From positions 192,009 to 256,008 of the forward strand of contig JABFGB010000005.1 of NCBI GenBank assembly GCA_013112715.1: DNA of 64,000 nt. The letters are read 5' to 3'. The notes below the pieces were generated by a model, which was not told where the DNA came from, did no database searches, and saw only the letters and a program-made list of their open reading frames with translations. The stretch's first letter is position 1; every line of letters begins with the position of its first letter. This document shows, piece after piece, positions 21,501 to 64,000 of the stretch. Made by a program: the position numbers and the translations under genes. This DNA is from Chloroflexota bacterium. Its GTDB lineage: Bacteria > Chloroflexota > Anaerolineae > Aggregatilineales > J027.

Positions 21501-23153
21501 GCCGAAGCCCGCCACACTACCCCCTACGTCGCCTTGATTTCGCCGTCCAACAATCACGACCTATATTCGATTGAAGACCTTGCCCAACTGATTGAAGAAC
21601 TCAAGACCGTCAATCCCGAAGCCAAAGTGTCGGTCAAAGTACCTGTCGTGCCGGGAATCGGGGTCATCGCGGTTGGGGTCGCCAAAGCCGGGGCCGATAT
21701 TATCAATCTGACCGGGTACGATGGCGCAACCGGGGCCGCCCGTCGTCATTCGCTGCAATATGTCGGCCTCCCGACAGAAATCGGTATCATTCAGGCTCAC
21801 CGCGCTCTGATTGAATCTGGCCTGCGTCATCGTGTCGAGTTGTGGTGTGATGGTGGTATGAAGACGGGCAGTGACGCCGTCAAGATGATTTTGCTCGGCG
21901 CGAATCGGATTGGATTTGCGACAATGGCGATGGTAGCGATTGGCTGTACCATCTGTCGTAAATGTCATGAAGGAACGTGTCATGTCGGTATCACCACCCA
22001 TATCAAGACGGTGGAAGAAGCTACCGAAAAAGGCCTCAAGAGTTTTGTCCCCCGCGATTATGACCTCGCTGTTGACGGAATTGTCCGTGTATTTAATGTC
22101 ATAGCCGATGAGATGCGGCGTTTGACCGCACAGCTTGGTTCAACCTGCCTGCAAGACTTGGTGGGACGTGCCGATTTGTTGGAACAAGTAGCGGGTCTGG
22201 ATATGGTAGACCTCTCGGCCATGCTCTACCACATGCCTATGAAACCCCGCTTGCTTTCCGAACCCGGCATTGGTCGCCGTCTGACCCGTCCACGCAACAG
22301 CTTGACTCACACGATTAGTAACCTCATTCTGAATGCAGTGCAAGATGGGGAACAAGAAGCCACCTATGAAGATGAGGTTATGGCCTATGACCGCGCACTG
22401 GGCGGTTATCTGGCAGGTGAACTTGTCCGTAATCCACGTATTGCCCAACGGCTCAATTGTGCTCACCTCAATTTCGGCCCATCCTCGATTGCCGGCAATG
22501 GTTTTGCAGCGTGGACAACCGACCAACTCGATATTTTTATCGAAGGCGGGGCACAGGACGGTGTAGCCAAAAGCGCCAATGGCGGACGAGTAGTGGTCAT
22601 GAAAGGCCTAAACCATAAAGGTACGCGCTTGGATGGCAGTGTGGGTAAGAGTTTTGCCTATGGCGCACAACGCGGCCTATTGATTGTGCAAGGCAATGCC
22701 GATTCCCGTGCTTGTATCCGCCTATCCGGTGCAGATGTCATCTTTGGGGGCGAAATCACCGAACCGCTGGATGATTCCAGTGTCAATGTCGGCACCCGCG
22801 CCAATCTCAAAGGCTTCGCGTGTGAATACATGACCTCCGGACGGGTCATCATCATGGGTGATCCCGGCCCCTATGCTTTCGCGGGGATGACAGGTGGCAC
22901 GGTCTATCAGCAGCTCACCCCCGAAATGGGCTTTGATGAAAATACGCTGCGCCGTCGTTTTGCCAAAGGTGCAACCGTCACCATTCAGCCATTGGACGAG
23001 AGTGACATCACCCAACTGCGCGATTTGTTCGGCTACTATGTTGAGGCCCTTGAACAAACGGCCCAAATCGAAGAGGCTGACCGGATTGTTGCACTCATGG
23101 AACCAGCTACATTGGCCCGCCGCTTTGTGAAGGTCGTTCCCGTGAGGAATTAG
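18501..23153 (+). CDS. gltB: Glutamate synthase, large-subunit/Fd-GOGAT-type single polypeptide
   Basis: Ntn-amidotransferase Cys after a short propeptide (DACALIM). FMN domain (VASGRFGV, KIGQGAKPGEGG, YSIEDLAQLIEELK). 3Fe-4S Cys motif (CTICRKCHEGTC). C-terminal GXGXG beta-helix domain. No gltD small subunit nearby. Confidence 0.9.
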   Translation: MTIPNIRTDTPPDSPDGPEHDACALIMSVRKGGESTYGTLKRAIHALSHMGHRTGFVEGEGDGAGIQTDIPRQLWGKKLSEAGLRSSIATDPRFWVGHCFIPANEDWREISESLNAHFNDAGLNLLIAEPGPVVMNALGRQARQNAPLFIQLAGYGETADVDNVLFRVQSEVEKILPIHFASLSSHVVVYKVRGSVEVLPRFYPDLQDRTYYTAMALCHARYSTNTASSFERVQPFPLMGHNGEINTISRFRQEAVQIGAELDPNNSDSQDIDRTLQTLCAKYGLSVIEGLEILFPPVPFEVENMPKPLQAVYNRLRQSFGPYAQGPAAIIARYANMAVVSVDALGLRPLWFVETEKEFIFSSERGVVPLENMMCDPRPLAPGEKMAVRLNRGKSVEVFDHAEIRQYVMKQAFQREVPQFAERYWSDWSSYSVPGEVRTRGGDGGGVAQSLAQAEVAVDTALMEVATLAATVEMPWQYAQTRAVDAIVMAATGWNREQIQEIESVVDTSGKDLVGSLGHDGPLAVLSKNRVNVADFFKETVAVVTNPAIDREREAEAFSTRMIVGARPAIGAAPHPDDILVVLETPILSGGHPTLGDAELVRAVAEPYGTMSIEDLLERFGSRVAWLTLGLYPGETTNAAINRLAHEAVNAVRSDVQCLVLDDTQTLEENLGWLDPHLAAGVIDRTLREADDELNLRRRAGIVVRSASIRTLHDVILLCGLGADAVNPYAMFVVAIGADKKSKTLTGQDSIKAQRTVLKNLTAGLEKVTSTIGCHELRGYGRTFSSIGLAPSVAGMLNTPNYFGSEKVGLTWERLDREADERAAELRGEAKAQIARVDRFYPKFWKKAEAVAHGEMSLDEFIEMYRNLKEEVPIALRHIIEIKHLTDSISPEHVEIGVDIHDMPLLISAMSFGSQGELAYRAYAEAAKRLNIVCVNGEGGELPDLMNRYHNNRGQQVASGRFGVNAEFLNSAYVIEIKIGQGAKPGEGGMLPASKVSPQVAEARHTTPYVALISPSNNHDLYSIEDLAQLIEELKTVNPEAKVSVKVPVVPGIGVIAVGVAKAGADIINLTGYDGATGAARRHSLQYVGLPTEIGIIQAHRALIESGLRHRVELWCDGGMKTGSDAVKMILLGANRIGFATMAMVAIGCTICRKCHEGTCHVGITTHIKTVEEATEKGLKSFVPRDYDLAVDGIVRVFNVIADEMRRLTAQLGSTCLQDLVGRADLLEQVAGLDMVDLSAMLYHMPMKPRLLSEPGIGRRLTRPRNSLTHTISNLILNAVQDGEQEATYEDEVMAYDRALGGYLAGELVRNPRIAQRLNCAHLNFGPSSIAGNGFAAWTTDQLDIFIEGGAQDGVAKSANGGRVVVMKGLNHKGTRLDGSVGKSFAYGAQRGLLIVQGNADSRACIRLSGADVIFGGEITEPLDDSSVNVGTRANLKGFACEYMTSGRVIIMGDPGPYAFAGMTGGTVYQQLTPEMGFDENTLRRRFAKGATVTIQPLDESDITQLRDLFGYYVEALEQTAQIEEADRIVALMEPATLARRFVKVVPVRN

Positions 23154-23191
23154 GAAATTTCCTGAATCCACAAAATTCTAATACTCAGGAC

Positions 23192-23228
23192 TTGCCCATT
23201 GTATATCTTAGATGTGATGGGCATTTTT
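23192..23228 (+). terminator. Weak terminator-like hairpin after gltB
   Basis: tgcccat (23193-23199) / atgggca (23216-23222), followed by tttttgt. The loop is long (16 nt). Confidence 0.3.
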
Positions 23229-23371
23229 GTATTCTGGAAGGAAAACTATCTCAAATAAAAGTTACTTTCACCTTTATTCGATTTGTTTTCACAATTTTTT
23301 TGAATTATGATAAATGTCCTAAAATCCATACGGACATGATAGAAATTTGTGAAGAAAATCGGTAAGCAGGA

Positions 23372-24172
23372 ATGAAACACCATATATTTTTGAGCTATAG
23401 TCGAGAAGATATATTAATCGTGAACTTGATCAGGGATGATTTCGAGAAAGAAGGCTTCACTGTCTGGACTGATCAGCACATAAAACCCGGAGATTCTTCT
23501 TGGATCAAGCAAATACAAAAAGCCATTGAAGATAGTGGATGCGTTGTTGTCATAATGACCCCTGAAGCTAAAAATTCGGAATGGGTAGAAAAAGAAATTG
23601 AATATGCTCAGGCCCTCGATCGGCCTATCATACCGTTACTTGCAAGAGGGAATAAGGCAACAGCAGTACCGGTAGCTATTATAACCTCTCAGCATATTGA
23701 TATTAAGGAGAATCGCATTGGTGCCATACGTAGAGCATCAAATACTATTAGAGAACTTCTCAATCTTCCACCCAAACCTGAAGATTTAGCTGGATTTTGG
23801 GCAAGCAATACAGATGATTATTTCTCTTTACAGGAAGGAAAAACACTTAGAGAACTATGGGAAAATATTACGAAAGATTCTGGAATTATAATAATCCTTG
23901 ATGAAAAGCATAAATTAGTTGGCATGATAAGTATAGGAGATTTGCTCAAACGTCTGTTAGAAGAAGATTTGAGTGAAAACACCCCAATAAAGCGCCTTAT
24001 GGTACCTAAGTCAAAAATAAAGCATGTAAAAGAAACCAGTACGATGAGCGAAGTTCATAGGCTAATTGCGAACTTCGAAATCGATCAAGTACCTGTGTTA
24101 AATGAAAATGATGAGTTAACGGGTGTTGTAACAAAAAGTGAGGTGGCTGCATGGTTTAGAAAAAACCGCTGA
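23372..24172 (+). CDS. TIR domain - CBS pair (Bateman) fusion protein
   Basis: N-terminal HIFLSYSREDI...FTVWTD...VVVIMTPEAKNSEWVEKEIEYA fits a TIR_2-like fold with the conserved W...E glutamate. The C-terminal half has two CBS-like repeats (IIILDEKHKLVGMISIGDLL and IDQVPVLNENDELTGVVTKSEV). Sample lines count 28-38% GC versus ~53% in flanking gltB. Confidence 0.75.
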   Translation: MKHHIFLSYSREDILIVNLIRDDFEKEGFTVWTDQHIKPGDSSWIKQIQKAIEDSGCVVVIMTPEAKNSEWVEKEIEYAQALDRPIIPLLARGNKATAVPVAIITSQHIDIKENRIGAIRRASNTIRELLNLPPKPEDLAGFWASNTDDYFSLQEGKTLRELWENITKDSGIIIILDEKHKLVGMISIGDLLKRLLEEDLSENTPIKRLMVPKSKIKHVKETSTMSEVHRLIANFEIDQVPVLNENDELTGVVTKSEVAAWFRKNR

Positions 24173-24284
24173 AATAATAACTTTGATATCCTCGACCCTG
24201 ATAAGCACATCCCTCAAATTTGTGTACAATATTCACCGACGCCGTAGCTCAAAAACCTTTGCGGCTTTGTGTGGAGAATCTTGC

Positions 24285-26942
24285 ATGAAAAAATGCACTT
24301 TAATGATGGGAGTCTTGCTCCTGCTGCTGACCGTTTCGGGCGTAACCTTTGCTATGCCCCGTCACCAAGCCCCGCCAGAGCCAATTGCCTATGGGGATAC
24401 CGCAACAGGCAGCATTAGTGAAATTCAAACCGAAGCGCGTTATGTGATCGAGGCCACACAGGGAGATCGTTTGGTTGCCATCGCTTCGACCACCAACGGC
24501 GATCTTGACCCCTATTTAAATCTGACTTCAGTTGAAGGTACGCTGCTGGCGAGTGACGATAACAGCGGTGGTGGGACAGTGGCTCAAATCACCTTTGTTG
24601 TTCCAGCGAGCGCGGCTTATTTAATTGTGGTGACGCGCTCACCCGAAGGTGCAGGCAATACGACAGGCGACTTTGAATTAACGGTGACCAATGCCGCCGC
24701 ACCCGTTGCTACCGAAGTGACCCCTGAAGTAGAAATTCCGACCTCGACTCCTGCCACTACCTCCAACACCGCCCGTTTACAGCCACTCCAATCCGGCACG
24801 CCAACGCGGGGTAGTGTGGATACAAGCAGCACCTTTAATCTGTACTGGTTTGAAGGCACAGCCGGGCAGGAAATTAGTCTTTCGCCAGATACCACCAGCC
24901 CCTTGCAGCCCTTATTGGTACTCTATCGGGCCGACTTCAGCGAAATTCTACGCGCCCAACCGGGCCAAGTTCTAAGTGCCACCTTAGAGGACAACAGCAT
25001 CTATTTTGTTGCGGCAGCACAGGTCGAACCCGGCAGCAGCGGCGAGTATGCCTTTACCTTTGACAATGGCACGGGTGACACTGGCTCGGCCATTGACCGC
25101 GATTTCCTGTTGTATGGTCAAAATATCAGCGGCAGTGTTTCCAATACCACACCCACCACTCGTTTCCGTTTTCGGGCCGAGGCGGGGGATGCCGTCACCA
25201 TCAATATGAATGCCATCAGCGGCGATTTGGACAGCTATCTTTTATTAGTAGATTCCAGCGGCAGCACCATCGCGGAAGACGATAACAGCGGTGGCAATGG
25301 CGATGCCCAAATTAGCACGACCATGCCGACCAGCGGAGAATTTTTCATTATTGCCACTCGCTTAGGTCAAGCCCAAGGGGTGACGACAGGTGAATTTTTG
25401 TTGGCCCTGATTTCCGATGCCCCACCGCGTTTGCCCCAAGCGACCCCGCCAACCCTGCCCACTGAATATGCTGAATTCCCACGCCTGACCTATGGCGAAA
25501 GTGCTGAGGGCGAAATTAGCAATGCCGTATTCCTAACCGTCTATGTTTTTGAGGGGCGAGCCGGGGATAACGTGAATATTGTGATGCAGGCCACCGGGGG
25601 CAATCTGGACAGCTATATGGTGCTGCTGGATGATGCACGCATCCCGCTACAGGACGCTGATGACATCAGTGAAACCAACAAAAATGCTCAATTGCAATTT
25701 ACCCTGCCACGTGACGCTTTTTATGCCATTGTCGCCACCCGCTTCGATCAAGGAGAGGGAACAACGGAAGGCACTTTTGAACTCAGCCTTGACCTTGCCT
25801 CCAACGATCAAGCCCCCGGCAATCCTGTTATAGATAGGCTAGTGACCGAACGCTTGGCGGCGGGCGACACTCCCTCCGGCACCTTTGAACCACTGCGTTT
25901 CGCCAGTCTCTATTCCTTCACCGCCGTTGAAAATTCACTCATAGATTTTGCCGTGACCGCCGACGGGGGCGAAACTGGCACGTTGATTTTGACGGATGCC
26001 TTCTTGAATCCCATCAGCGTCTCCAACAACGGTGTTCTATTGGCGATTCCAGCCCCAGTGAGTGGCGACTATCTGGTCATTGTAGCCCCCCAAGCTGGCC
26101 CTGCCGCAAATATTTCCGGCGGCTTTTTTGTGGCGTTGAATGCAGGCGTAGGGGAAACCGATACCCCGCCTGAAGACGGTAATACTACAACAGGCGGCAC
26201 GGCTGCCCCTGTTGCCATCGCCTATGGCACAACCGTGCGTGGACGTATTACCGAAGATGTCACCGCCGAACAGTATGTCTTTCAGGGGCGGGGCGGCGAT
26301 ATTGTAGATATTTCCATGACCTCCGATGGCCCAGATATTCTGGATTGCTTCCTGCAACTGCTGGATGCAAACGGGGATGTCATCGAAGAAAACGACGACA
26401 TTGACCCCGGCGTTATTCGTGATTCGCTCATTACCGCCACCTTGCCGAGTGATGGTCAATATACGATTGTCGCTACCCATTTTGAAGACCCGACGGGGCA
26501 AGTTGAGCAGACCTTTGGCAACTATACGCTCACATTAGCCTATCGTGACCCCACCACCGCAGGCGTTGACCGAGAAGCACGGGCTATCAGTTTTGACCAA
26601 AGCCTTAGCGACACGATTGATGCCGATACCTATCTGTATTTCTACTATTTCACGGGCACGCAGGGGGATACTATCACCATTACAGTGGATACCACCGAGG
26701 GGAATCTAGACCCGATTCTCTATCTTTACACCTATGATTCGGCTAATCAACCGCGCCTGCTGACGGCGAATGACGATAGTCCCTTAGGTAGTACATATGA
26801 CCCGTACATTGAATACCGCCTGCCACGTACCGGAACCTATCTGATTGCCGTCACGCGCTATGCCGAAACCGCCGCCGAGCCAACCAGCGGGTCGTATACC
26901 ATTACCCTACAAAATCTGGGGGCAGGCTCCACTAGCCAGTAG
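24285..26942 (+). CDS. Secreted protein of ~7 tandem PPC-like (pre-peptidase C-terminal type) repeats
   Basis: Signal peptide MKKCTLMMGVLLLLLTVSGVTFA at ATG 24285. Recurrent ~110-aa unit contains G[DN]LD[PS]YL.L.D..G...A.DDNSGG...A.I...P..G.Y.I.ATR...G.T.G.F.L. No catalytic domain is recognisable. Confidence 0.65.
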   Translation: MKKCTLMMGVLLLLLTVSGVTFAMPRHQAPPEPIAYGDTATGSISEIQTEARYVIEATQGDRLVAIASTTNGDLDPYLNLTSVEGTLLASDDNSGGGTVAQITFVVPASAAYLIVVTRSPEGAGNTTGDFELTVTNAAAPVATEVTPEVEIPTSTPATTSNTARLQPLQSGTPTRGSVDTSSTFNLYWFEGTAGQEISLSPDTTSPLQPLLVLYRADFSEILRAQPGQVLSATLEDNSIYFVAAAQVEPGSSGEYAFTFDNGTGDTGSAIDRDFLLYGQNISGSVSNTTPTTRFRFRAEAGDAVTINMNAISGDLDSYLLLVDSSGSTIAEDDNSGGNGDAQISTTMPTSGEFFIIATRLGQAQGVTTGEFLLALISDAPPRLPQATPPTLPTEYAEFPRLTYGESAEGEISNAVFLTVYVFEGRAGDNVNIVMQATGGNLDSYMVLLDDARIPLQDADDISETNKNAQLQFTLPRDAFYAIVATRFDQGEGTTEGTFELSLDLASNDQAPGNPVIDRLVTERLAAGDTPSGTFEPLRFASLYSFTAVENSLIDFAVTADGGETGTLILTDAFLNPISVSNNGVLLAIPAPVSGDYLVIVAPQAGPAANISGGFFVALNAGVGETDTPPEDGNTTTGGTAAPVAIAYGTTVRGRITEDVTAEQYVFQGRGGDIVDISMTSDGPDILDCFLQLLDANGDVIEENDDIDPGVIRDSLITATLPSDGQYTIVATHFEDPTGQVEQTFGNYTLTLAYRDPTTAGVDREARAISFDQSLSDTIDADTYLYFYYFTGTQGDTITITVDTTEGNLDPILYLYTYDSANQPRLLTANDDSPLGSTYDPYIEYRLPRTGTYLIAVTRYAETAAEPTSGSYTITLQNLGAGSTSQ

Positions 26943-26952
26943 AACGGGTCGT

Positions 26953-28422
26953 ATGCGAAAGGCACTGTTTTTTATTACCCTGCTGTTGATAATCTCAGGC
27001 TATACACCTGCCTATAGCGATTCGTATCGGCAGCAGGGAGATCAACTCCCCTTTGGAGAGACCGTGACAGGTGAGATTACGAGCGAGGAATTTCGCCAGT
27101 TATATACATTCTCCGGCAATGAGGGGCAGGTGATCGCCATTCGCATGACCCGCGTGGAGGGTGATCTTGATCCGGTGGTGCTTCTCATGAATACCAACGG
27201 CGTCGTTTTGGGCTATAGTGACGATGAGGACGAAGGCCGCAATGCCCTGATTAGCTCCCAGCGCCTCCCCGCCAATGGCACTTATGTGGTGATTGCCACA
27301 CGCTTTGGGCACGAGCATGGCAACACGACAGGCACATACGAAATCCGCATGGACAGTCTTGGCGCAACGGCTTCCAGCGGCTCTAGCCTGAATCTAGGTA
27401 CGTCTATTGTGGGGGAAATCACCAACGAACGGCATGAGGTCATCTACACGTTTCAGGCCGAACGTGGGCAGGTCATCAATATTTATATGAAACGCACCAG
27501 TGGCAATCTTGACCCCCTCTTGGATTTGTTCGATGCCAGCGGCGGCTATCTCATCAGTGGCGATGACGACCCGAATTCCTACGGCAGTCTTAACGCCGCG
27601 ATTCTGAACTTTATGATTCCCAACAACGGGAGTTATATCATTCGGGCGACGCGCTGGGGCTATGATGCGGGTACAAGTTCGGGGAGTTTCTTGATTGAAC
27701 TGACGGAAATCCCGCCTGAAACATTGGGGACACGCCCCACCAATGCTCGCTTCATGGCCTATGATGACACCGTAGCCTCGCAAATTGATAATGAAATCTC
27801 CATCCGCTTCTTTCAATTTGATGCCACACGCGGGGATGTGATTTCCGCCGTCGCCAGCCGTGAAACAGGCAACATCTCCCCTCAACTGAGCCTACTCTAT
27901 ATGGATTTACGCCCGATCAGCGTGGGCACAACCGGTTCGGGCCAAGAGGAATCGCGTATTAGTGCGACCATTCCCGAAAATGGACGCTATTTGTTGGCGG
28001 TCTCCCGTTTTCGCGGCGCAGAGGGTACATCCGAAGGAGAGTTTTCGTTAACCCTAATTGGCCGACAGGGTATCGGCGGCGGAGATGCCCTCGAAATTGT
28101 CTACGAGGCGCAGGTGACAGGCATCATTGACAGTGCCCACGCCTCCGAAACCTACATTTTTCTAGGCGAGGAGGGTGATTTAGTCACCATCACCATGCAG
28201 CGCTTGGATGGTAATCTCGATTGCCTACTGACGCTGCAAGATGAAACAGGCAAGCAGTTGATTTTTAATGACGATATTGAACAGGGAGTGGTGCAAGATT
28301 CAAGAATTTCCCGCTTTCGTCTGCCTGCCGATGGCCTCTATCGTATCGAAGCCTCCCGTTTTGACCGCATCGCAGGCACAACCAGCGGGGCCTATTCCCT
28401 GACCCTTGTGAAAGAGAATTAG
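26953..28422 (+). CDS. Secreted protein of ~4 tandem PPC-like repeats
   Basis: Signal peptide MRKALFFITLLLIISGYTPAYS at ATG 26953. Repeats contain VEGDLDPVVLL, TSGNLDPLLDL, ETGNISPQLSL and LDGNLDCLLTL. Confidence 0.65.
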   Translation: MRKALFFITLLLIISGYTPAYSDSYRQQGDQLPFGETVTGEITSEEFRQLYTFSGNEGQVIAIRMTRVEGDLDPVVLLMNTNGVVLGYSDDEDEGRNALISSQRLPANGTYVVIATRFGHEHGNTTGTYEIRMDSLGATASSGSSLNLGTSIVGEITNERHEVIYTFQAERGQVINIYMKRTSGNLDPLLDLFDASGGYLISGDDDPNSYGSLNAAILNFMIPNNGSYIIRATRWGYDAGTSSGSFLIELTEIPPETLGTRPTNARFMAYDDTVASQIDNEISIRFFQFDATRGDVISAVASRETGNISPQLSLLYMDLRPISVGTTGSGQEESRISATIPENGRYLLAVSRFRGAEGTSEGEFSLTLIGRQGIGGGDALEIVYEAQVTGIIDSAHASETYIFLGEEGDLVTITMQRLDGNLDCLLTLQDETGKQLIFNDDIEQGVVQDSRISRFRLPADGLYRIEASRFDRIAGTTSGAYSLTLVKEN

Positions 28423-61349: not shown

Positions 61350-62339
61350 TCAGATCGTCAGGCCCATCCGCGCATACGCATAGCGACGTTTAAAGCCGAG
61401 TTGCTCGACGGCTTCAATCAGGTTGGTCTGCCACACTGGAATTTGAATCTCAATCTTATGGCCCGGACTGAGTTCAAGGATTTCGCGCACCAACTTGACC
61501 AAGAGAGGATAAGCCAGTTCAGGCTGAGTGGGGTCTATCTCTAGGATGATATTATTTAGACCGCCCTTTTTTCTCAACGCCCCAAAACGACCAACAGCGA
61601 CTACCTGCCCATTTTTATCCTGCACCTGATAGCGGCGGCGAGTCGTCTTAGTAATATAGCTGATAATGGACATCATGATTCGGGCGGCGGCGGGTACGCG
61701 GTAGACCGATTCCGCGACTGGCTCATATTCCTGCACAATTGCCGGGGTAATGCGCTGCGCCAGCTGATAACGCGGCTGCCATTCGGATGACTTTAGGGGA
61801 GCCATGGTATAAGTGGAAGTCCATGGGGCCTCAGTGGGTGGGGTAGGGGCTTCATAATCGTAGGTGATGCTGGTCGTATAGTTCACAAACCCCAGTTTTT
61901 CATAAAGTTGTTGGGCGGGCAAATTGCCATCAATTACGTCTAATATAATCTTTTTCGCGCCGCGCTCTCGGCCCAATTTCAAACAGGCTTCAACCAATTT
62001 TCGGGCGAGACCCTTACGCCGATGATCCGGCAGTACCGCCACATTCGACACCATCCATGTATCACTTTTGCCACGCCGCCCGATATTGGCTGTCCCAATG
62101 CGTTTGCCGCCTTCCTCCCAGACGTAACCGTGCATCATATCCTTCATGGAAGGTGAAATAAGGAACAGCACCCGAAAAATGGGCCATAGTTTTTTGACTG
62201 TTCGCAGCATAACGAGGGTGGATTCTTGTTCTTCATCGTCCATATCCCATTCGGGGTGGTCGGGATACTTGGCGGCAACACTCCACACTTCCAACATGCT
62301 ATCAATATCTTTGGGCATCGTAAAGGGGCGGAGAGACAT
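61350..62339 (-). CDS. GNAT-family N-acetyltransferase (two-lobed, 329 aa)
   Basis: Acetyl-CoA loop HRRKGLARKLV. Convergent with the response regulator gene, with a small shared hairpin gacgat/atcgtc at 61341-61359. Confidence 0.65.
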   Translation of the reverse strand: MSLRPFTMPKDIDSMLEVWSVAAKYPDHPEWDMDDEEQESTLVMLRTVKKLWPIFRVLFLISPSMKDMMHGYVWEEGGKRIGTANIGRRGKSDTWMVSNVAVLPDHRRKGLARKLVEACLKLGRERGAKKIILDVIDGNLPAQQLYEKLGFVNYTTSITYDYEAPTPPTEAPWTSTYTMAPLKSSEWQPRYQLAQRITPAIVQEYEPVAESVYRVPAAARIMMSIISYITKTTRRRYQVQDKNGQVVAVGRFGALRKKGGLNNIILEIDPTQPELAYPLLVKLVREILELSPGHKIEIQIPVWQTNLIEAVEQLGFKRRYAYARMGLTI

Positions 62340-62752: not shown

Positions 62753-63742
62753 GTGGGTCATCTTTTTATCAGTTATAGCAAAAAAGATATAGATTTCGCT
62801 CGTAACCTGAAAAAATCTTTGAACGATGCAGGTTTCGATGTTTGGATGGACGAGTCGGAAATTCATCCGGGTCAAGTCTGGGATGATGTTCTTCAACAAA
62901 ATGTCTTGAGTAGTTCTGCTTTATTGGTAGTGATGTCCTCAAATTCTCGCAAATCAGATTGGGTGAAAAATGAAGTTGAATTAGCACGGGAAAAGAAAAT
63001 TCCGATCTTCCCGATTTTGTTAGAGGGTGAGGTCTGGTTTGGGCTTCGACATCTTCAATATGAGGATATGCGCGATCAAGAAAAAACAGTCAAACTCTCT
63101 ATAGAATTTACTGTCAGTTTACGCCAAACGACCTCTGACAAAGGCCATATTCCTTCAACGCCAAAGACAAATCGCCGTATTCGACTTAATGAACCCTGGG
63201 CTATTATTATTGCAGCCCTCATAAGCGGAATATGCCTCATTATTGCCGCATTAATTGCGCTTGGCGATAACAATGACAACGAGAAATCTGAATCTACTCC
63301 ACCGCAAATTGTAGAAGCGACCACTACCGTTGCTCAAACTGTATCGCCATCCAGTACACCCACCAGCACGCCGACTGCCTCTGCCACAACATCCAATATT
63401 CCTACCCAAACAAACGCCGCGACGACGATTTTTACTTCCATACCTACCGAAAGTTCGATTTTAACCACAACTGCCCCCACGACCATCGCCTATCCATGCG
63501 AGGGTCAGATTGTAGATGCTGGTTCGTATGTGACTTCACTCAATGTGGTACGCATTAGTCCATCTCCTGATGCACGATTACGTCCACCTGTCAAAGTTGG
63601 TGATGTAGTGACGATAGAGGCAAAAGAGGGAGAAACAATAGCAAATACCTGGTATCAAATAACCTATGAAGGCCCGAATGGGAGTATTTCGGGCTGGATA
63701 CCCGATGAATATCTAGCTCTATCTGAAAACTGCCCTAAATAA
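62753..63742 (+). CDS. TIR, TM, S/T-rich linker, SH3b-like domain protein
   Basis: HLFISYSKKDI...FDVWMDE...LLVVMSSNSRKSDWVKNEVELA is TIR_2-like with the conserved W...E. TM helix WAIIIAALISGICLIIAALIAL. T/S/P linker. C-terminal LNVVRISPSP...WYQITYEG..GSISGWIPDEYL is SH3b-like. Confidence 0.75.
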   Translation: MGHLFISYSKKDIDFARNLKKSLNDAGFDVWMDESEIHPGQVWDDVLQQNVLSSSALLVVMSSNSRKSDWVKNEVELAREKKIPIFPILLEGEVWFGLRHLQYEDMRDQEKTVKLSIEFTVSLRQTTSDKGHIPSTPKTNRRIRLNEPWAIIIAALISGICLIIAALIALGDNNDNEKSESTPPQIVEATTTVAQTVSPSSTPTSTPTASATTSNIPTQTNAATTIFTSIPTESSILTTTAPTTIAYPCEGQIVDAGSYVTSLNVVRISPSPDARLRPPVKVGDVVTIEAKEGETIANTWYQITYEGPNGSISGWIPDEYLALSENCPK

Positions 63743-63761
63743 ATTCTAGCTGGAGGTCGAA

Positions 63762-63902
63762 ATGAGAACTTTTTCTGTTGTGATTTCAACTATTTTACTG
63801 GCTTCAGCCTTGTCTATCACTGAAACTAGAATTGCCAATGCCCAAGACACAACCAGACCTGTTCAATGCGGCGAAATCATCGAGGCTGAATTAAGCCACT
63901 AG
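63762..63902 (+). pseudogene. Short signal-peptide ORF (46 aa), possibly the truncated 5' end of another PPC-type secreted protein
   Basis: ggaggt RBS, then MRTFSVVISTILLASALSITETRIANAQDTTRPVQCGEIIEAELSH-stop. The mature N-terminus resembles the start of the PPC repeats at 24285 and 26953 (..YGDTATGSI.., ..FGETVTGEI..). Confidence 0.3.
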
Positions 63903-64000
63903 TCGAAAGTGATCAGCGAACAAGAGACGATCAGGGTGATGCCAAACATTCTGTTGGGTGTGCATAAAAGCATCAACTGAAGCCTGCAACTCATCCAAGG
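63891..64000 (-). CDS. 3' end of a convergent ORF running off the window (unknown; faintly transposase-C-terminus-like)
   Basis: Reverse frame reads ...LDELQASVDAFMHTQQNVWHHPDRLLFADHFRLVA-stop. Only 36 codons are visible. Confidence 0.25.
   Translation of the reverse strand, partial: LDELQASVDAFMHTQQNVWHHPDRLLFADHFRLVA

What the first reader, a model, noticed from the sequence alone, without database searches (positions are those of the whole stretch)
62753..63902. Recurrent synteny: both TIR genes sit immediately upstream of signal-peptide PPC-type genes
The same gene order occurs twice, ~39 kb apart. TIR-CBS (23372-24172) is followed by two PPC-repeat secreted proteins (24285-28422). TIR-TM-SH3b (62753-63742) is followed 19 nt later by an ORF encoding a signal peptide plus the start of a PPC-like repeat (..VQCGEIIEAEL..). 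Seeing an unusual pairing twice in one window hints at a functional link between cytoplasmic TIR signalling and these secreted repeat proteins. It could also reflect a shared mobile or duplicated cassette.
Basis: inference. Interest (0 to 1): 0.6.

Follow-up and report, generated by a model that had tools for sequence, protein, structure and literature searches.

The report
Membrane TIR receptor with secreted partner
A membrane-spanning TIR (immune-type NAD-cleaving) protein of a Chloroflexota bacterium is encoded just before a gene for a secreted PPC-type protein, a pairing kept in two unrelated metagenome contigs, but here a jumping gene has cut the partner after 44 codons, and the other TIR-PPC pair in the window cannot be shown to be more than a neighbour.

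Summary
Both TIR genes are real (TIR_2 E 1e-23 and 1e-24). PPC1 and PPC2 are real tandem-PPC secreted proteins. An ORF with a Shine-Dalgarno site and a signal peptide starts 19 nt after the TIR-TM-SH3b gene.

That ORF does not run off the window. It stops at 63902 because an IS630-family element inserted at TA 63892-63893. Only 44 native codons remain, and on their own they show no measurable PPC similarity (0-1 bit).

Comparative data rescue the PPC call. Only two proteins found share this protein's Cys-bracketed SH3b-like ectodomain. Both have a gene 21-24 nt downstream that starts with a signal peptide plus xQCGD..GE(I/F), like the stump. The first domain of those proteins matches the window's PPC repeats in register (hhalign 95.7%, E 1e-8).

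So TIR-TM-SH3b plus a secreted PPC-like protein is a conserved two-gene module: 3 of 3 loci, against 0 of about 62 other TIR loci.

The TIR-CBS/PPC1-PPC2 pair is not a copy of it. Its TIR domain is 27% identical, it is an orphan architecture, and it sits in a 38% GC islet beside 53% GC PPC genes. A functional link there is unproven (chance about 3%).

Verdict: partly supported. The module looks like a new variant of TIR sensors, and it is disrupted in this genome.

The parts
62753..63742 (+). CDS of the TIR-TM-SH3b protein (329 aa, GTG start). It is annotated BroJett018_14390 in MAG GCA_016860965.1.
   Evidence: ORF list. Pfam TIR_2 1.2e-24. Identical protein on 8 contigs. The N-terminus MGHLFISYSK matches homologues such as P0027.
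62753..63127 (+). Cytoplasmic TIR domain (aa 1-125) with the conserved Glu74 in the SxWVxxE motif.
   Evidence: Pfam. phmmer against PDB aligns E74 with the Glu of AbTir 'DWTNYELDG'. S68, V71 and E74 are invariant in 23 family TIR domains.
63197..63265 (+). Single transmembrane helix (about aa 149-171). It has KTNRRIR before it and DNNDNEKSE after it, so the N-terminus should be inside and the C-terminus outside.
   Evidence: Kyte-Doolittle maximum of 3.04 at aa 151-169. The flanking charges are read from the sequence. Topology by the positive-inside rule is inference.
63266..63484 (+). Thr/Pro/Ser-rich low-complexity stalk.
   Evidence: Translation. A weak mucin-like Pfam hit. Homologues have the same kind of linker.
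63485..63739 (+). Extracytoplasmic SH3b-like domain bracketed by two conserved Cys (YPCEG...WYQITY...GWIP...ENC).
   Evidence: SH3_3 6.3e-5, below threshold. Alignment with P0026 and P0031 shows an invariant Cys pair. AF2 pLDDT 68, and the top Foldseek matches are all SH3/SH3b, with E >= 0.02.
63752..63756 (+). Shine-Dalgarno GGAGG, 5 nt before the downstream ATG.
   Evidence: Sequence.
63762..63893 (+). 5' stump (44 native codons) of a secreted PPC-like protein gene: a signal peptide, then AQDTTRPVQCGEIIEAEL.
   Evidence: An HMM built only from the L098/L099 downstream proteins ranks it first of 1487 window ORFs (17.4 bits, E 2.9e-4). Alignment.
63894..63902 (+). IS-derived tail of the annotated 46-aa ORF (Ser, His, TAG).
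   Evidence: The IS boundary is inferred from the transposase C-terminus, from the point where Logan contigs end, and from the TA at 63892-63893.
63891..64000 (-). 3' end of an IS630-family (DDE_3) transposase gene. It enters from the contig end, and its stop TAA at 63893-63891 overlaps the TA target. The IS end starts at about 63894.
   Evidence: The 35-aa peptide matches the extreme C-termini of P0040-42 (56-59% identity, E 7e-5 to 5e-4). P0040 scores DDE_3 7e-28. The MAG contig ends at or near this point, and four independent assemblies break at about 63919.
23372..24172 (+). TIR-CBS protein (266 aa): an N-terminal TIR domain and a C-terminal CBS pair, with no TM helix.
   Evidence: Pfam. 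Only the TIR part has homologues. GC 37.8%.
23050..24250 (.). Low-GC islet (33-40% against 51% for the window) that holds only the TIR-CBS gene and its two intergenic regions.
   Evidence: Composition profile.
24285..26942 (+). PPC1: a secreted protein made of 7 tandem PPC-type repeats, GC 53.7%.
   Evidence: Pfam PPC 2.4e-32. Repeat map.
26953..28422 (+). PPC2: a secreted protein made of 4 tandem PPC-type repeats, 10 nt after PPC1, GC 52.8%.
   Evidence: Pfam PPC 7.9e-24. NCBIfam NF038127 at 48.7 bits. Repeat map.

Best explanation
Window 62753-63902 is the remnant of a two-gene operon.

Gene 1 encodes a single-pass membrane protein. It has an enzyme-type TIR domain in the cytoplasm, with the catalytic Glu present. 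A Thr/Pro-rich stalk follows the membrane helix, and a small SH3b-like domain closed by a Cys pair sits outside the membrane.

Gene 2 starts 19 nt downstream. It encoded a secreted protein whose mature N-terminus begins a PPC-type beta-sandwich domain. An IS630-family element inserted at a TA after codon 44, so only the signal peptide and about 18 mature residues remain.

Shown: the gene pair is conserved as a unit in two other contigs with unrelated flanks. It tracks the presence of the Cys-bracketed SH3b-like ectodomain.

Inferred: the secreted PPC-like protein is the extracellular partner of that ectodomain, as a ligand, co-sensor or wall anchor. Its binding, loss or cleavage would control clustering of the cytoplasmic TIR domains. 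That in turn would control NAD+ cleavage or signal-nucleotide production, as in other bacterial TIR defence or cell-death proteins. In this MAG the partner gene is knocked out.

The other pairing (TIR-CBS, then PPC1 and PPC2) uses the same two domain families and the same PPC sub-type, but it is not a copy of the module. It is best read as a foreign single-gene TIR islet that landed beside native PPC genes. A functional link there is possible but unproven.
For: Domains.

IS630 truncation:
- In-frame stop.
- The minus-strand peptide matches the C-termini of DDE_3 transposases.
- The MAG contig ends about 125 nt further into the IS, and four independent assemblies break at about 63919.

Conserved module:
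- Only P0026 and P0031 share the C-terminal domain (HMM E 1e-30 to 1e-40, no other hit in 99 loci and 42 proteins).
- Both have a same-strand gene 21-24 nt downstream that begins with a signal peptide plus (L/V)QCGD(I/V)..GE(I/F).
- The stump aligns with them at 38% and 30% identity over 43 aa.
- It is the top window hit of an HMM built without it (E 2.9e-4).
- The motif is otherwise absent after signal peptides in 1.3 million six-frame residues.

PPC nature of the partners:
- Their best Pfam hit is PPC, E 0.0029 and 0.16.
- The window PPC HMM gives 27.3 bits.
- hhalign gives 95.7%, E 1e-8, over 85 columns in register.

Specificity:
- 0 PPC-type ORFs in 877 kb around other TIR genes, and none in the Pfam-annotated loci.
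- P0028 is collinear with P0026, in the same HNH...mraZ context. It lacks both the SH3b-like domain and the PPC-like gene.
- 3 of 3 against 0 of about 62 gives a Fisher p of about 2e-5 (my arithmetic).

Composition: the stump (41.8% GC) matches its TIR gene (43.6%). PPC1 and PPC2 (53-54%) do not match TIR-CBS (37.8%).
Against: - There are only three instances of the module. One is truncated by the IS and one by a contig end.
- The partner proteins are similar to each other only over about 40 N-terminal residues by BLASTP, and they stay below Pfam's PPC cut-off.
- No intact allele of the stump gene was found, and its 3' half could not be located.
- No physical interaction, expression or NADase activity has been shown.
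- SH3b assignment rests on a below-threshold Pfam hit and a pLDDT-68 model with Foldseek E >= 0.02.
- The genome tolerates loss of the partner. That argues against the partner being an essential antidote, and it may mean the module is decaying here.
- The pairing at site 1 could still be meaningful. The chance of a TIR gene sitting directly upstream of a given gene cluster is only about 3%. That figure uses the TIR gene density seen here: 2 of about 58 genes in the window, and 22 extra TIR ORFs in 855 kb of loci.
Confidence: 0.6

Rival explanations
1. General TIR-PPC functional coupling. Both pairs in the window, including TIR-CBS with PPC1/PPC2, would be instances of one system in which TIR enzymes work with secreted PPC-repeat proteins.
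For: Both PPC clusters in the 64-kb window lie directly downstream, on the same strand, of its only two TIR genes. The partners at both sites belong to the same PPC sub-type, with the same xx(Y/F/C)G(D/E)..xGE(I/F) preamble. PPC-type genes are rare elsewhere (0 in 877 kb). The chance of adjacency at site 1 is about 3%. No terminator-like site lies between TIR-CBS and PPC1.
Against: TIR-CBS is cytoplasmic and has no membrane or extracellular part to meet a secreted protein. It has no full-length homologue, so no conserved neighbourhood can be shown. A sharp GC islet (37.8% against 53-54%) shows the TIR gene and the PPC genes have different histories. None of about 62 other TIR loci has a PPC neighbour.
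Confidence: 0.2
2. Pure coincidence at both sites. TIR genes are very common in these Chloroflexota, and the stump only looks PPC-like.
For: TIR genes are dense in these loci: 22 extra TIR ORFs in 855 kb, often 2-4 per 20 kb. The stump alone scores 0-1 bit against PPC models. It has no database homologue by word-based search.
Against: The same downstream gene type, with the same N-terminal motif and spacing, follows the only two homologues that share the ectodomain. Profile-profile comparison places that domain in the PPC family. A matched presence/absence pair exists.
Confidence: 0.1
3. A duplicated or mobile TIR+PPC cassette is present twice in the window.
For: The same order of domain families occurs twice, 39 kb apart. 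Both TIR genes have below-average GC. An IS element lies next to site 2.
Against: The TIR domains are only 27% identical and fall in different subfamilies, FLSYSR...VWTDE against FISYSK...VWMDE. The architectures differ: CBS pair against TM plus SH3b-like domain. PPC1 and PPC2 have host-like GC. The IS tip tested (42 nt from 63902) occurs only once in the window. The IS interrupts the partner gene rather than flanking the pair.
Confidence: 0.03
4. ORF 63762-63902 is a genuine small gene for a 46-aa secreted peptide, not a fragment.
For: It is annotated as a gene (BroJett018_14400). It has a good ribosome-binding site and a signal peptide.
Against: Its last two codons and its stop lie in the end of an IS630-family element. 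Its homologues at the same position are 344 aa and more than 131 aa long.
Confidence: 0.03

Closest known systems
Toll / Toll-like / IL-1 receptors (single-pass receptors with a cytoplasmic TIR domain). Drosophila Toll with its secreted ligand Spaetzle is the nearest analogy.
   Same: [quoted passage not shown] The receptor gene is paired with a secreted protein that could be its ligand.
   Different: The topology is inverted: TIR at the N-terminus, type II orientation. The ectodomain is a small SH3b-like domain, not LRR or Ig. The TIR domain keeps the catalytic Glu of NADase-type TIRs. No homology exists outside the TIR domain. The resemblance is architectural only, and ligand binding is untested.
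Bacterial defence TIR proteins (Thoeris ThsB, SAVED-TIR and Ago-TIR effectors, AbTir-type NADases).
   Same: The TIR_2/ThsB-type TIR domain matches these models at domain level (PADLOC 8e-14 to 6e-4; NCBIfam ThcB4 1e-13, far below its cut-off; PDB AbTir 1.5e-4). The catalytic Glu is conserved.
   Different: No ThsA, SAVED, Argonaute or cyclase partner lies nearby. The partner is instead a secreted PPC-like protein with no PADLOC match. The protein is membrane-anchored with an extracytoplasmic domain.
TIR-TM-variable-ectodomain proteins of Chloroflexota
   Same: An N-terminal TIR of the same subfamily (FISYSK.DI.FAR...VWMDE), a TM helix at about aa 150-190, and a Thr/Pro linker.
   Different: Their ectodomains are PD40 propellers, FGE-sulfatase (C-type-lectin-like), DsbA/thioredoxin or generic SH3_3. 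They lack a PPC-like neighbour. Only the Cys-bracketed SH3b-like subgroup carries the partner gene.
PPC (pre-peptidase C-terminal, PF04151) domain proteins.
   Same: PPC1 and PPC2 pass the Pfam threshold. The partner proteins of L098 and L099 match the same repeat profile.
   Different: No peptidase domain is present, so these are PPC-only secreted proteins. The module partners fall below Pfam's cut-off (18.9 and 13.3 bits against 25.9) and carry a conserved N-terminal QCG(D/E) motif that is absent from PPC1 and PPC2.
IS630 / Tc1-mariner family insertion sequences.
   Same: A DDE_3 transposase C-terminus, a junction at a TA dinucleotide, and assembly breaks typical of a multi-copy element.
   Different: Only about 107 nt of one end are in the window. 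Inverted repeats, the second TA and the copy number could not be checked.

Membership tests
TIR domain, NADase-type (Pfam TIR_2 PF13676) | Significant match to the TIR_2 profile above the gathering score. | tested here: met
   87.5 bits (cut-off 28) for 62753-63742 and 84.4 bits for 23372-24172.
TIR domain, NADase-type (Pfam TIR_2 PF13676) | Catalytic glutamate at the position of AbTir E208 / SARM1 E642. | tested here: met
   E74 aligns with the Glu of AbTir 'DWTNYELDG'. The column is invariant in 23 relatives, including TIR-CBS, where I count it as E75. That this AbTir Glu is the catalytic one comes from my own knowledge.
TIR domain, NADase-type (Pfam TIR_2 PF13676) | NAD+ cleavage activity. 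| not testable with these tools
   Needs a biochemical assay.
Thoeris defence system | A ThsB-type TIR gene next to a ThsA effector (SIR2/SLOG or Macro/TM). | tested here: not met
   The neighbours are a GNAT acetyltransferase, a two-component system, the PPC-like stump and an IS. PADLOC gives only TIR-domain-level hits, and the neighbours have none. NCBIfam ThcB4 gives 50.5 bits against a cut-off of 220.
Bacterial SH3 domain (SH3b, Pfam SH3_3 PF08239) | Profile match above the gathering score. | tested here: not met
   23.5 bits against a cut-off of 27, E 6.3e-5, when the C-terminal 83 aa are scanned alone. There is no hit in the full-length scan.
Bacterial SH3 domain (SH3b, Pfam SH3_3 PF08239) | SH3-like beta-barrel fold. 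| tested here: inconclusive
   The AF2 model has pLDDT 68.3 and five strands. Most Foldseek PDB matches, including the best, are SH3 or SH3b (YrvJ TMq 0.64, InlB 0.59), but E >= 0.02.
PPC domain (PF04151): the stump at 63762-63893 | Detectable similarity of the stump itself to a PPC profile. | tested here: not met
   No Pfam hit. 1.0 bit with the window PPC HMM. 0.04 bit with the preamble PSSM. Only about 12 residues of the domain survive.
PPC domain (PF04151): the stump at 63762-63893 | Homology of the stump to full-length proteins that are PPC-type. | tested here: met
   The stump is the top hit of the L098/L099 N-terminal HMM (E 2.9e-4). The first domain of those proteins against the window PPC repeats gives hhalign 95.7%, E 1e-8, in register. 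Their best Pfam family is PPC, but below threshold.
PPC domain (PF04151): PPC1 and PPC2 | Profile match above the gathering score, in tandem copies, behind a signal peptide. | tested here: met
   112 and 84.8 bits against a cut-off of 25.9. 7 and 4 repeats. Hydrophobic N-termini.
IS630-family insertion sequence | DDE_3 transposase. | tested here: met
   The 35-aa C-terminal peptide matches the C-termini of P0040-42. P0040 scores DDE_3 7.2e-28. Only the last 35-41 residues are visible.
IS630-family insertion sequence | Terminal inverted repeats and TA target-site duplication. | not testable with these tools
   The other end lies beyond the contig end. A genome-contig scan for the IS tip found only one unrelated hit. 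A TA is present at the inferred junction.
Conserved operon (TIR-TM-SH3bCys + PPC-like gene) | The same gene pair, order, strand and short spacing in genomes with different flanks. | tested here: met
   Window gap 19 nt, L098 24 nt, L099 21 nt. The flanks differ: GNAT; HNH...mraZ; GGACT. GC is 51, 51 and 43%.
Conserved operon (TIR-TM-SH3bCys + PPC-like gene) | Co-transcription. | not testable with these tools
   No transcript data are available. No terminator-like site lies between the genes.

The most novel reading that the evidence does not exclude
A bacterial receptor-ligand pair built like Toll and Spaetzle. A single-pass membrane protein would use its SH3b-like ectodomain to read the state of a dedicated secreted PPC-type protein: bound, cleaved by an invader's protease, or displaced from the cell wall. 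It would relay this across the membrane by clustering a catalytically competent cytoplasmic TIR domain. That would give filamentous Chloroflexota an outside-in route to TIR-driven NAD+ depletion or signalling. The wider TIR-TM family, with propeller, lectin-like, thioredoxin and SH3 ectodomains, would then be a repertoire of surface immune or kin-recognition receptors.
Probability: 0.2. Interest if true: 0.85.

Novelty: new variant of a known kind. Interest (0 to 1): 0.5.

Why it matters
Known bacterial TIR systems sense events in the cytoplasm. An extracytoplasmic sensor domain joined through the membrane to an enzyme-type TIR, with a dedicated secreted partner, would be a candidate for outside-in TIR signalling in bacteria. 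It would also be an architectural parallel to animal Toll-type receptors.

Three papers-library searches that paired TIR with PPC or TM terms found no report of a TIR-PPC pairing or of bacterial TIR-TM proteins.

The finding gives a small, testable system: two genes, with intact copies in L098.

It also corrects the annotation. The 46-aa 'hypothetical protein' is a gene fragment created by an IS630 insertion.

The claim is limited. There are three instances, one broken, and no functional data.

Tried and rejected
1. A direct PPC test of the 46-aa ORF with Pfam, a window-built PPC HMM and a preamble PSSM gave no signal. Comparative loci later reversed that.
2. A homologue search with the 46-aa ORF found only itself.
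3. I tried to identify the minus-strand peptide by Pfam and by tblastn against plasmids, and found nothing. The all-against-all HMMER search solved it.
4. A genome-contig scan for the IS tip, meant to find the other half of the cut gene, gave one unrelated hit. The MAG appears not to be in that collection.
The TIR-TM subfamily alignment A2 worked.
6. Pfam on 105 first and second downstream neighbours shows only families with 3 or more members, so 1-2 PPC hits could hide there. I closed this gap with my own HMMs and spot checks.
7. A search for more module members in viral contigs and plasmids found none.
8. P0004 has the TIR domain closest to TIR-CBS. Its contig ends right after the gene, so no neighbour is visible.
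9. phmmer against PDB with the L098 partner and with PPC2 gave nothing significant.
10. The duplicated-cassette and small-peptide readings were rejected (see rival explanations).
Full report
**Source**

The window is the last 64 kb of contig BOKL01000004.1 of the MAG 'Chloroflexota bacterium BroJett018' (GCA_016860965.1). The contig ends 18 nt beyond the window.

**Check of the observation**

- Both TIR genes are real.
  - 23372-24172 encodes a TIR domain plus a CBS pair (TIR_2 1.2e-23, CBS 2.2e-16).
  - 62753-63742 encodes a TIR domain (1.2e-24). One strongly hydrophobic helix follows at about aa 149-171, then a Thr/Pro-rich stretch and a C-terminal domain.
- The C-terminal domain is SH3b-like, with moderate support.
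  - It scores just under the SH3_3 threshold when scanned alone (E 6.3e-5).
  - A moderate AlphaFold model (pLDDT 68) has only SH3/SH3b folds among its top matches, though with weak E-values.
- PPC1 (24285-26942) and PPC2 (26953-28422) are signal-peptide proteins made only of PPC repeats, 7 and 4 of them.
- An ORF starts 19 nt after the TIR-TM-SH3b stop. It has a GGAGG ribosome-binding site and a plausible Sec signal peptide.
- A PPC HMM built from the window's own repeats finds no other PPC ORF in the 64 kb.

- The downstream ORF does not run off the window. It has an in-frame TAG at 63900-63902.
- On the opposite strand an ORF enters from the contig end and stops at 63893-63891.
  - Its last 35 residues match the extreme C-termini of three database proteins (56-59% identity, E 7e-5 to 5e-4).
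  - The longest of those is a DDE_3 (IS630-type) transposase (7e-28).
- The MAG contig ends about 125 nt into this element. Four independent Logan assemblies of the same population all break at window position about 63919, as expected at the edge of a repeat.
- With a TA at 63892-63893, the simplest reading is an IS630-family insertion at that TA.
  - Codons 1-44 of the ORF (...VQCGEIIEAEL) are native.
  - 'SH-stop' comes from the IS.
- So the annotated 46-aa protein is a gene stump.

**Is the stump PPC-like?**

Taken alone, this cannot be shown.
- Pfam finds nothing.
- The window PPC HMM gives 1.0 bit, and in the wrong register.
- A PSSM of the repeat 'preamble' gives 0.04 bit against 26-32 bits for true repeats. 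About 1 in 1000 random 15-mers do as well.
- No homologue other than itself turned up among 5.8 billion protein clusters.

**Comparative evidence that reversed this**

- Relatives of the TIR-TM-SH3b protein form a family.
  - They share an N-terminal TIR domain, a TM helix and a Thr/Pro linker.
  - Their ectodomains vary: PD40 propeller, FGE-sulfatase, DsbA/thioredoxin or SH3_3.
- Only two relatives, P0026 (504 aa) and P0031 (453 aa), share the window protein's C-terminal domain with its invariant Cys pair. No other hit occurs in 99 loci and 42 proteins.
- Their contigs (L098, L099) have different flanking genes and GC content.
- In both, a same-strand gene starts 24 or 21 nt after the TIR gene. 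It encodes a signal peptide followed by AQ..(L/V)QCGD(I/V)..GE(I/F), the pattern of the stump.
- An HMM built only from those two N-termini ranks the stump first among 1487 six-frame ORFs of the window (17.4 bits, E 2.9e-4). It is also the best non-self hit among all loci.
- The motif occurs nowhere else after a signal peptide in 1.3 million six-frame residues.
- The two downstream proteins are PPC-type.
  - Their best Pfam family is PPC, below threshold (E 0.0029 and 0.16).
  - The window PPC HMM gives the L098 protein 27.3 bits in two domains.
  - A profile-profile comparison of their first domain with the ten window repeats gives 95.7% probability and E 1e-8 over 85 columns.
  - The comparison starts exactly where xQCGD lines up with the xxYGD preamble.

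**How specific is the pairing?**

- I collected neighbourhoods of other TIR genes.
  - Eight came with Pfam-annotated genes.
  - Eighty metagenome loci came from the TIR-TM subfamily alignment.
- About 62 of these loci show a downstream gene.
- None has a PPC-type neighbour.
  - No annotated locus carries PF04151.
  - PPC is not among the families matched by 3 or more of 105 downstream neighbours.
  - The weak candidates turned out to be SdrD_B or kinase proteins.
  - A broadened PPC HMM hits only the L098 and L099 partners in 877 kb.
- 3 of 3 against 0 of about 62 gives a Fisher p of about 2e-5.
- There is also a matched presence/absence pair.
  - P0028 is collinear with P0026 over its whole length and sits in the same HNH...mraZ context.
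  - It lacks the last ~100 residues (the SH3b-like domain), and its locus lacks the PPC-like gene.
- A relative with a generic SH3_3 ectodomain (P0038) also lacks the partner gene.

**Site 1, TIR-CBS with PPC1 and PPC2**

- No full-length homologue of TIR-CBS was found. Only its TIR domain has relatives, and those are fused to many other domains.
- The gene sits in a sharp 33-40% GC islet (23050-24250). On one side is gltB and on the other the PPC genes, which have host-like 53-54% GC.
- By contrast the stump (41.8%) shares the low GC of its TIR gene (43.6%).
- The two TIR domains are 27% identical and belong to different subfamilies.
- The two sites are therefore not copies of one cassette.
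- The adjacency at site 1 has a chance probability of roughly 3%. TIR genes make up about 3% of genes here (2 of about 58 in the window; 22 extra TIR ORFs in 855 kb).
- That is suggestive but unproven. TIR-CBS also has no membrane or extracellular part that could contact a secreted protein.

**Likely mechanism**

Shown:
- A TIR domain that keeps the Glu aligned with the AbTir catalytic residue.
- One TM helix with basic residues before it and acidic residues after it.
- An ectodomain with a conserved Cys pair.
- A conserved, tightly spaced downstream gene for a secreted PPC-like protein.

Inferred:
- The protein is oriented N-in and C-out.
- The secreted protein is the extracellular partner of the SH3b-like domain.
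- Its state controls clustering of the cytoplasmic TIR domains, and so NAD+ cleavage or signal production, as in other bacterial TIR defence or cell-death proteins.

In this MAG the partner is disrupted by the IS. The module is probably inactive or altered, and the partner is unlikely to be an essential antidote.

**Comparison with known systems**

- PADLOC and NCBIfam give only TIR-domain-level matches (ThsB, SAVED-TIR, Ago-TIR; ThcB4 far below its cut-off). The PPC proteins and neighbours have no defence-family hit.
- No ThsA-like effector is nearby, so this is not Thoeris.
- The architecture resembles Toll-type receptors, and Toll-Spaetzle for the pairing, but with inverted topology and no homology outside the TIR domain.
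- Literature searches pairing TIR with PPC or TM terms found no report of a TIR-PPC pairing or of bacterial TIR-TM proteins. A broader search was judged from its top 15 of 127 listed papers only. Work on conflict systems of multicellular bacteria describes TIR effectors, and the one paper searched for the term (Kaur et al. 2020) has no mention of PPC.

**Verdict**

There is a real, apparently undescribed two-gene module for the TIR-TM-SH3b type. There is no general TIR-PPC rule, the link for TIR-CBS is unproven, and there is no duplicated cassette. I rate it a new variant of a known kind, of moderate interest, limited by three instances and no functional data.

Noticed in passing
window 63891-64000 (minus strand) and L001 11140-11266: The stop codon (TAA, 63893-63891) of the IS630-family transposase overlaps the TA at the inferred insertion junction. 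The homologues P0040-42 end at the same residue. The element's ORF therefore seems to be closed by the target TA rather than inside the IS.
   Followed up: partly
window 23050-24250: A sharp single-gene low-GC islet (33-40% against 51-55% on both sides) holds only TIR-CBS. It lies just after a strong terminator-like hairpin (23193-23223) that follows gltB. It looks like a recent insertion. No mobile-element remains were looked for beyond the IS-tip search.
   Followed up: partly
proteins P0026-P0039; loci L010, L012, L014, L016, L098, L099, L101: A family of Chloroflexota proteins combines an N-terminal TIR domain, one TM helix, a Thr/Pro linker and interchangeable ectodomains. The ectodomains are PD40 propeller, FGE-sulfatase (lectin-like), DsbA/thioredoxin, SH3_3 or an unnamed Cys-rich domain. 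Searches pairing TIR with PPC or TM terms found no description of it; the listed results of a broader TIR/transmembrane search showed none either.
   Followed up: partly
L098 750-1177 and L012 7444-7859 (also L013): A small HNH gene (55-58 aa) and an 83-aa gene lie divergently upstream of the TIR-TM gene in two related loci next to the mraZ-rsmH division cluster. This may be a further conserved neighbour of that TIR subgroup.
   Followed up: no
L007, L008, L014, L034, L065, L085-L087, L091, L094, L095: TIR genes cluster in these loci, with 2-4 TIR-domain ORFs within 20 kb in many metagenome loci. They are often fused to FHA, WD40, kinase or HATPase domains. TIR genes seem unusually dense in these lineages.
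   Followed up: no
window 26953-28422: PPC2 passes the NCBIfam threshold for NF038127 'DVUA0089 family protein' (48.7 bits against a cut-off of 29). PPC1 does not. The PPC repeats here may belong to a named sub-family that I did not explore.
   Followed up: no
window 61350-62339 (minus strand) and L010 2396-3409: A 329-337 aa GNAT acetyltransferase lies divergently upstream of the TIR-TM gene in the window. It lies about 3.4 kb upstream of the related TIR-TM gene P0027, and another GNAT is convergent after P0038 in L101. This may be residual synteny or coincidence.
   Followed up: no
protein P0004 (L100 712-1563): The TIR domain closest to that of TIR-CBS (56% identity) is fused to a C-terminal region that looks Roadblock/LC7-like by eye, not to CBS. 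The TIR-CBS lineage seems to swap small ligand-binding or regulatory modules.
   Followed up: no
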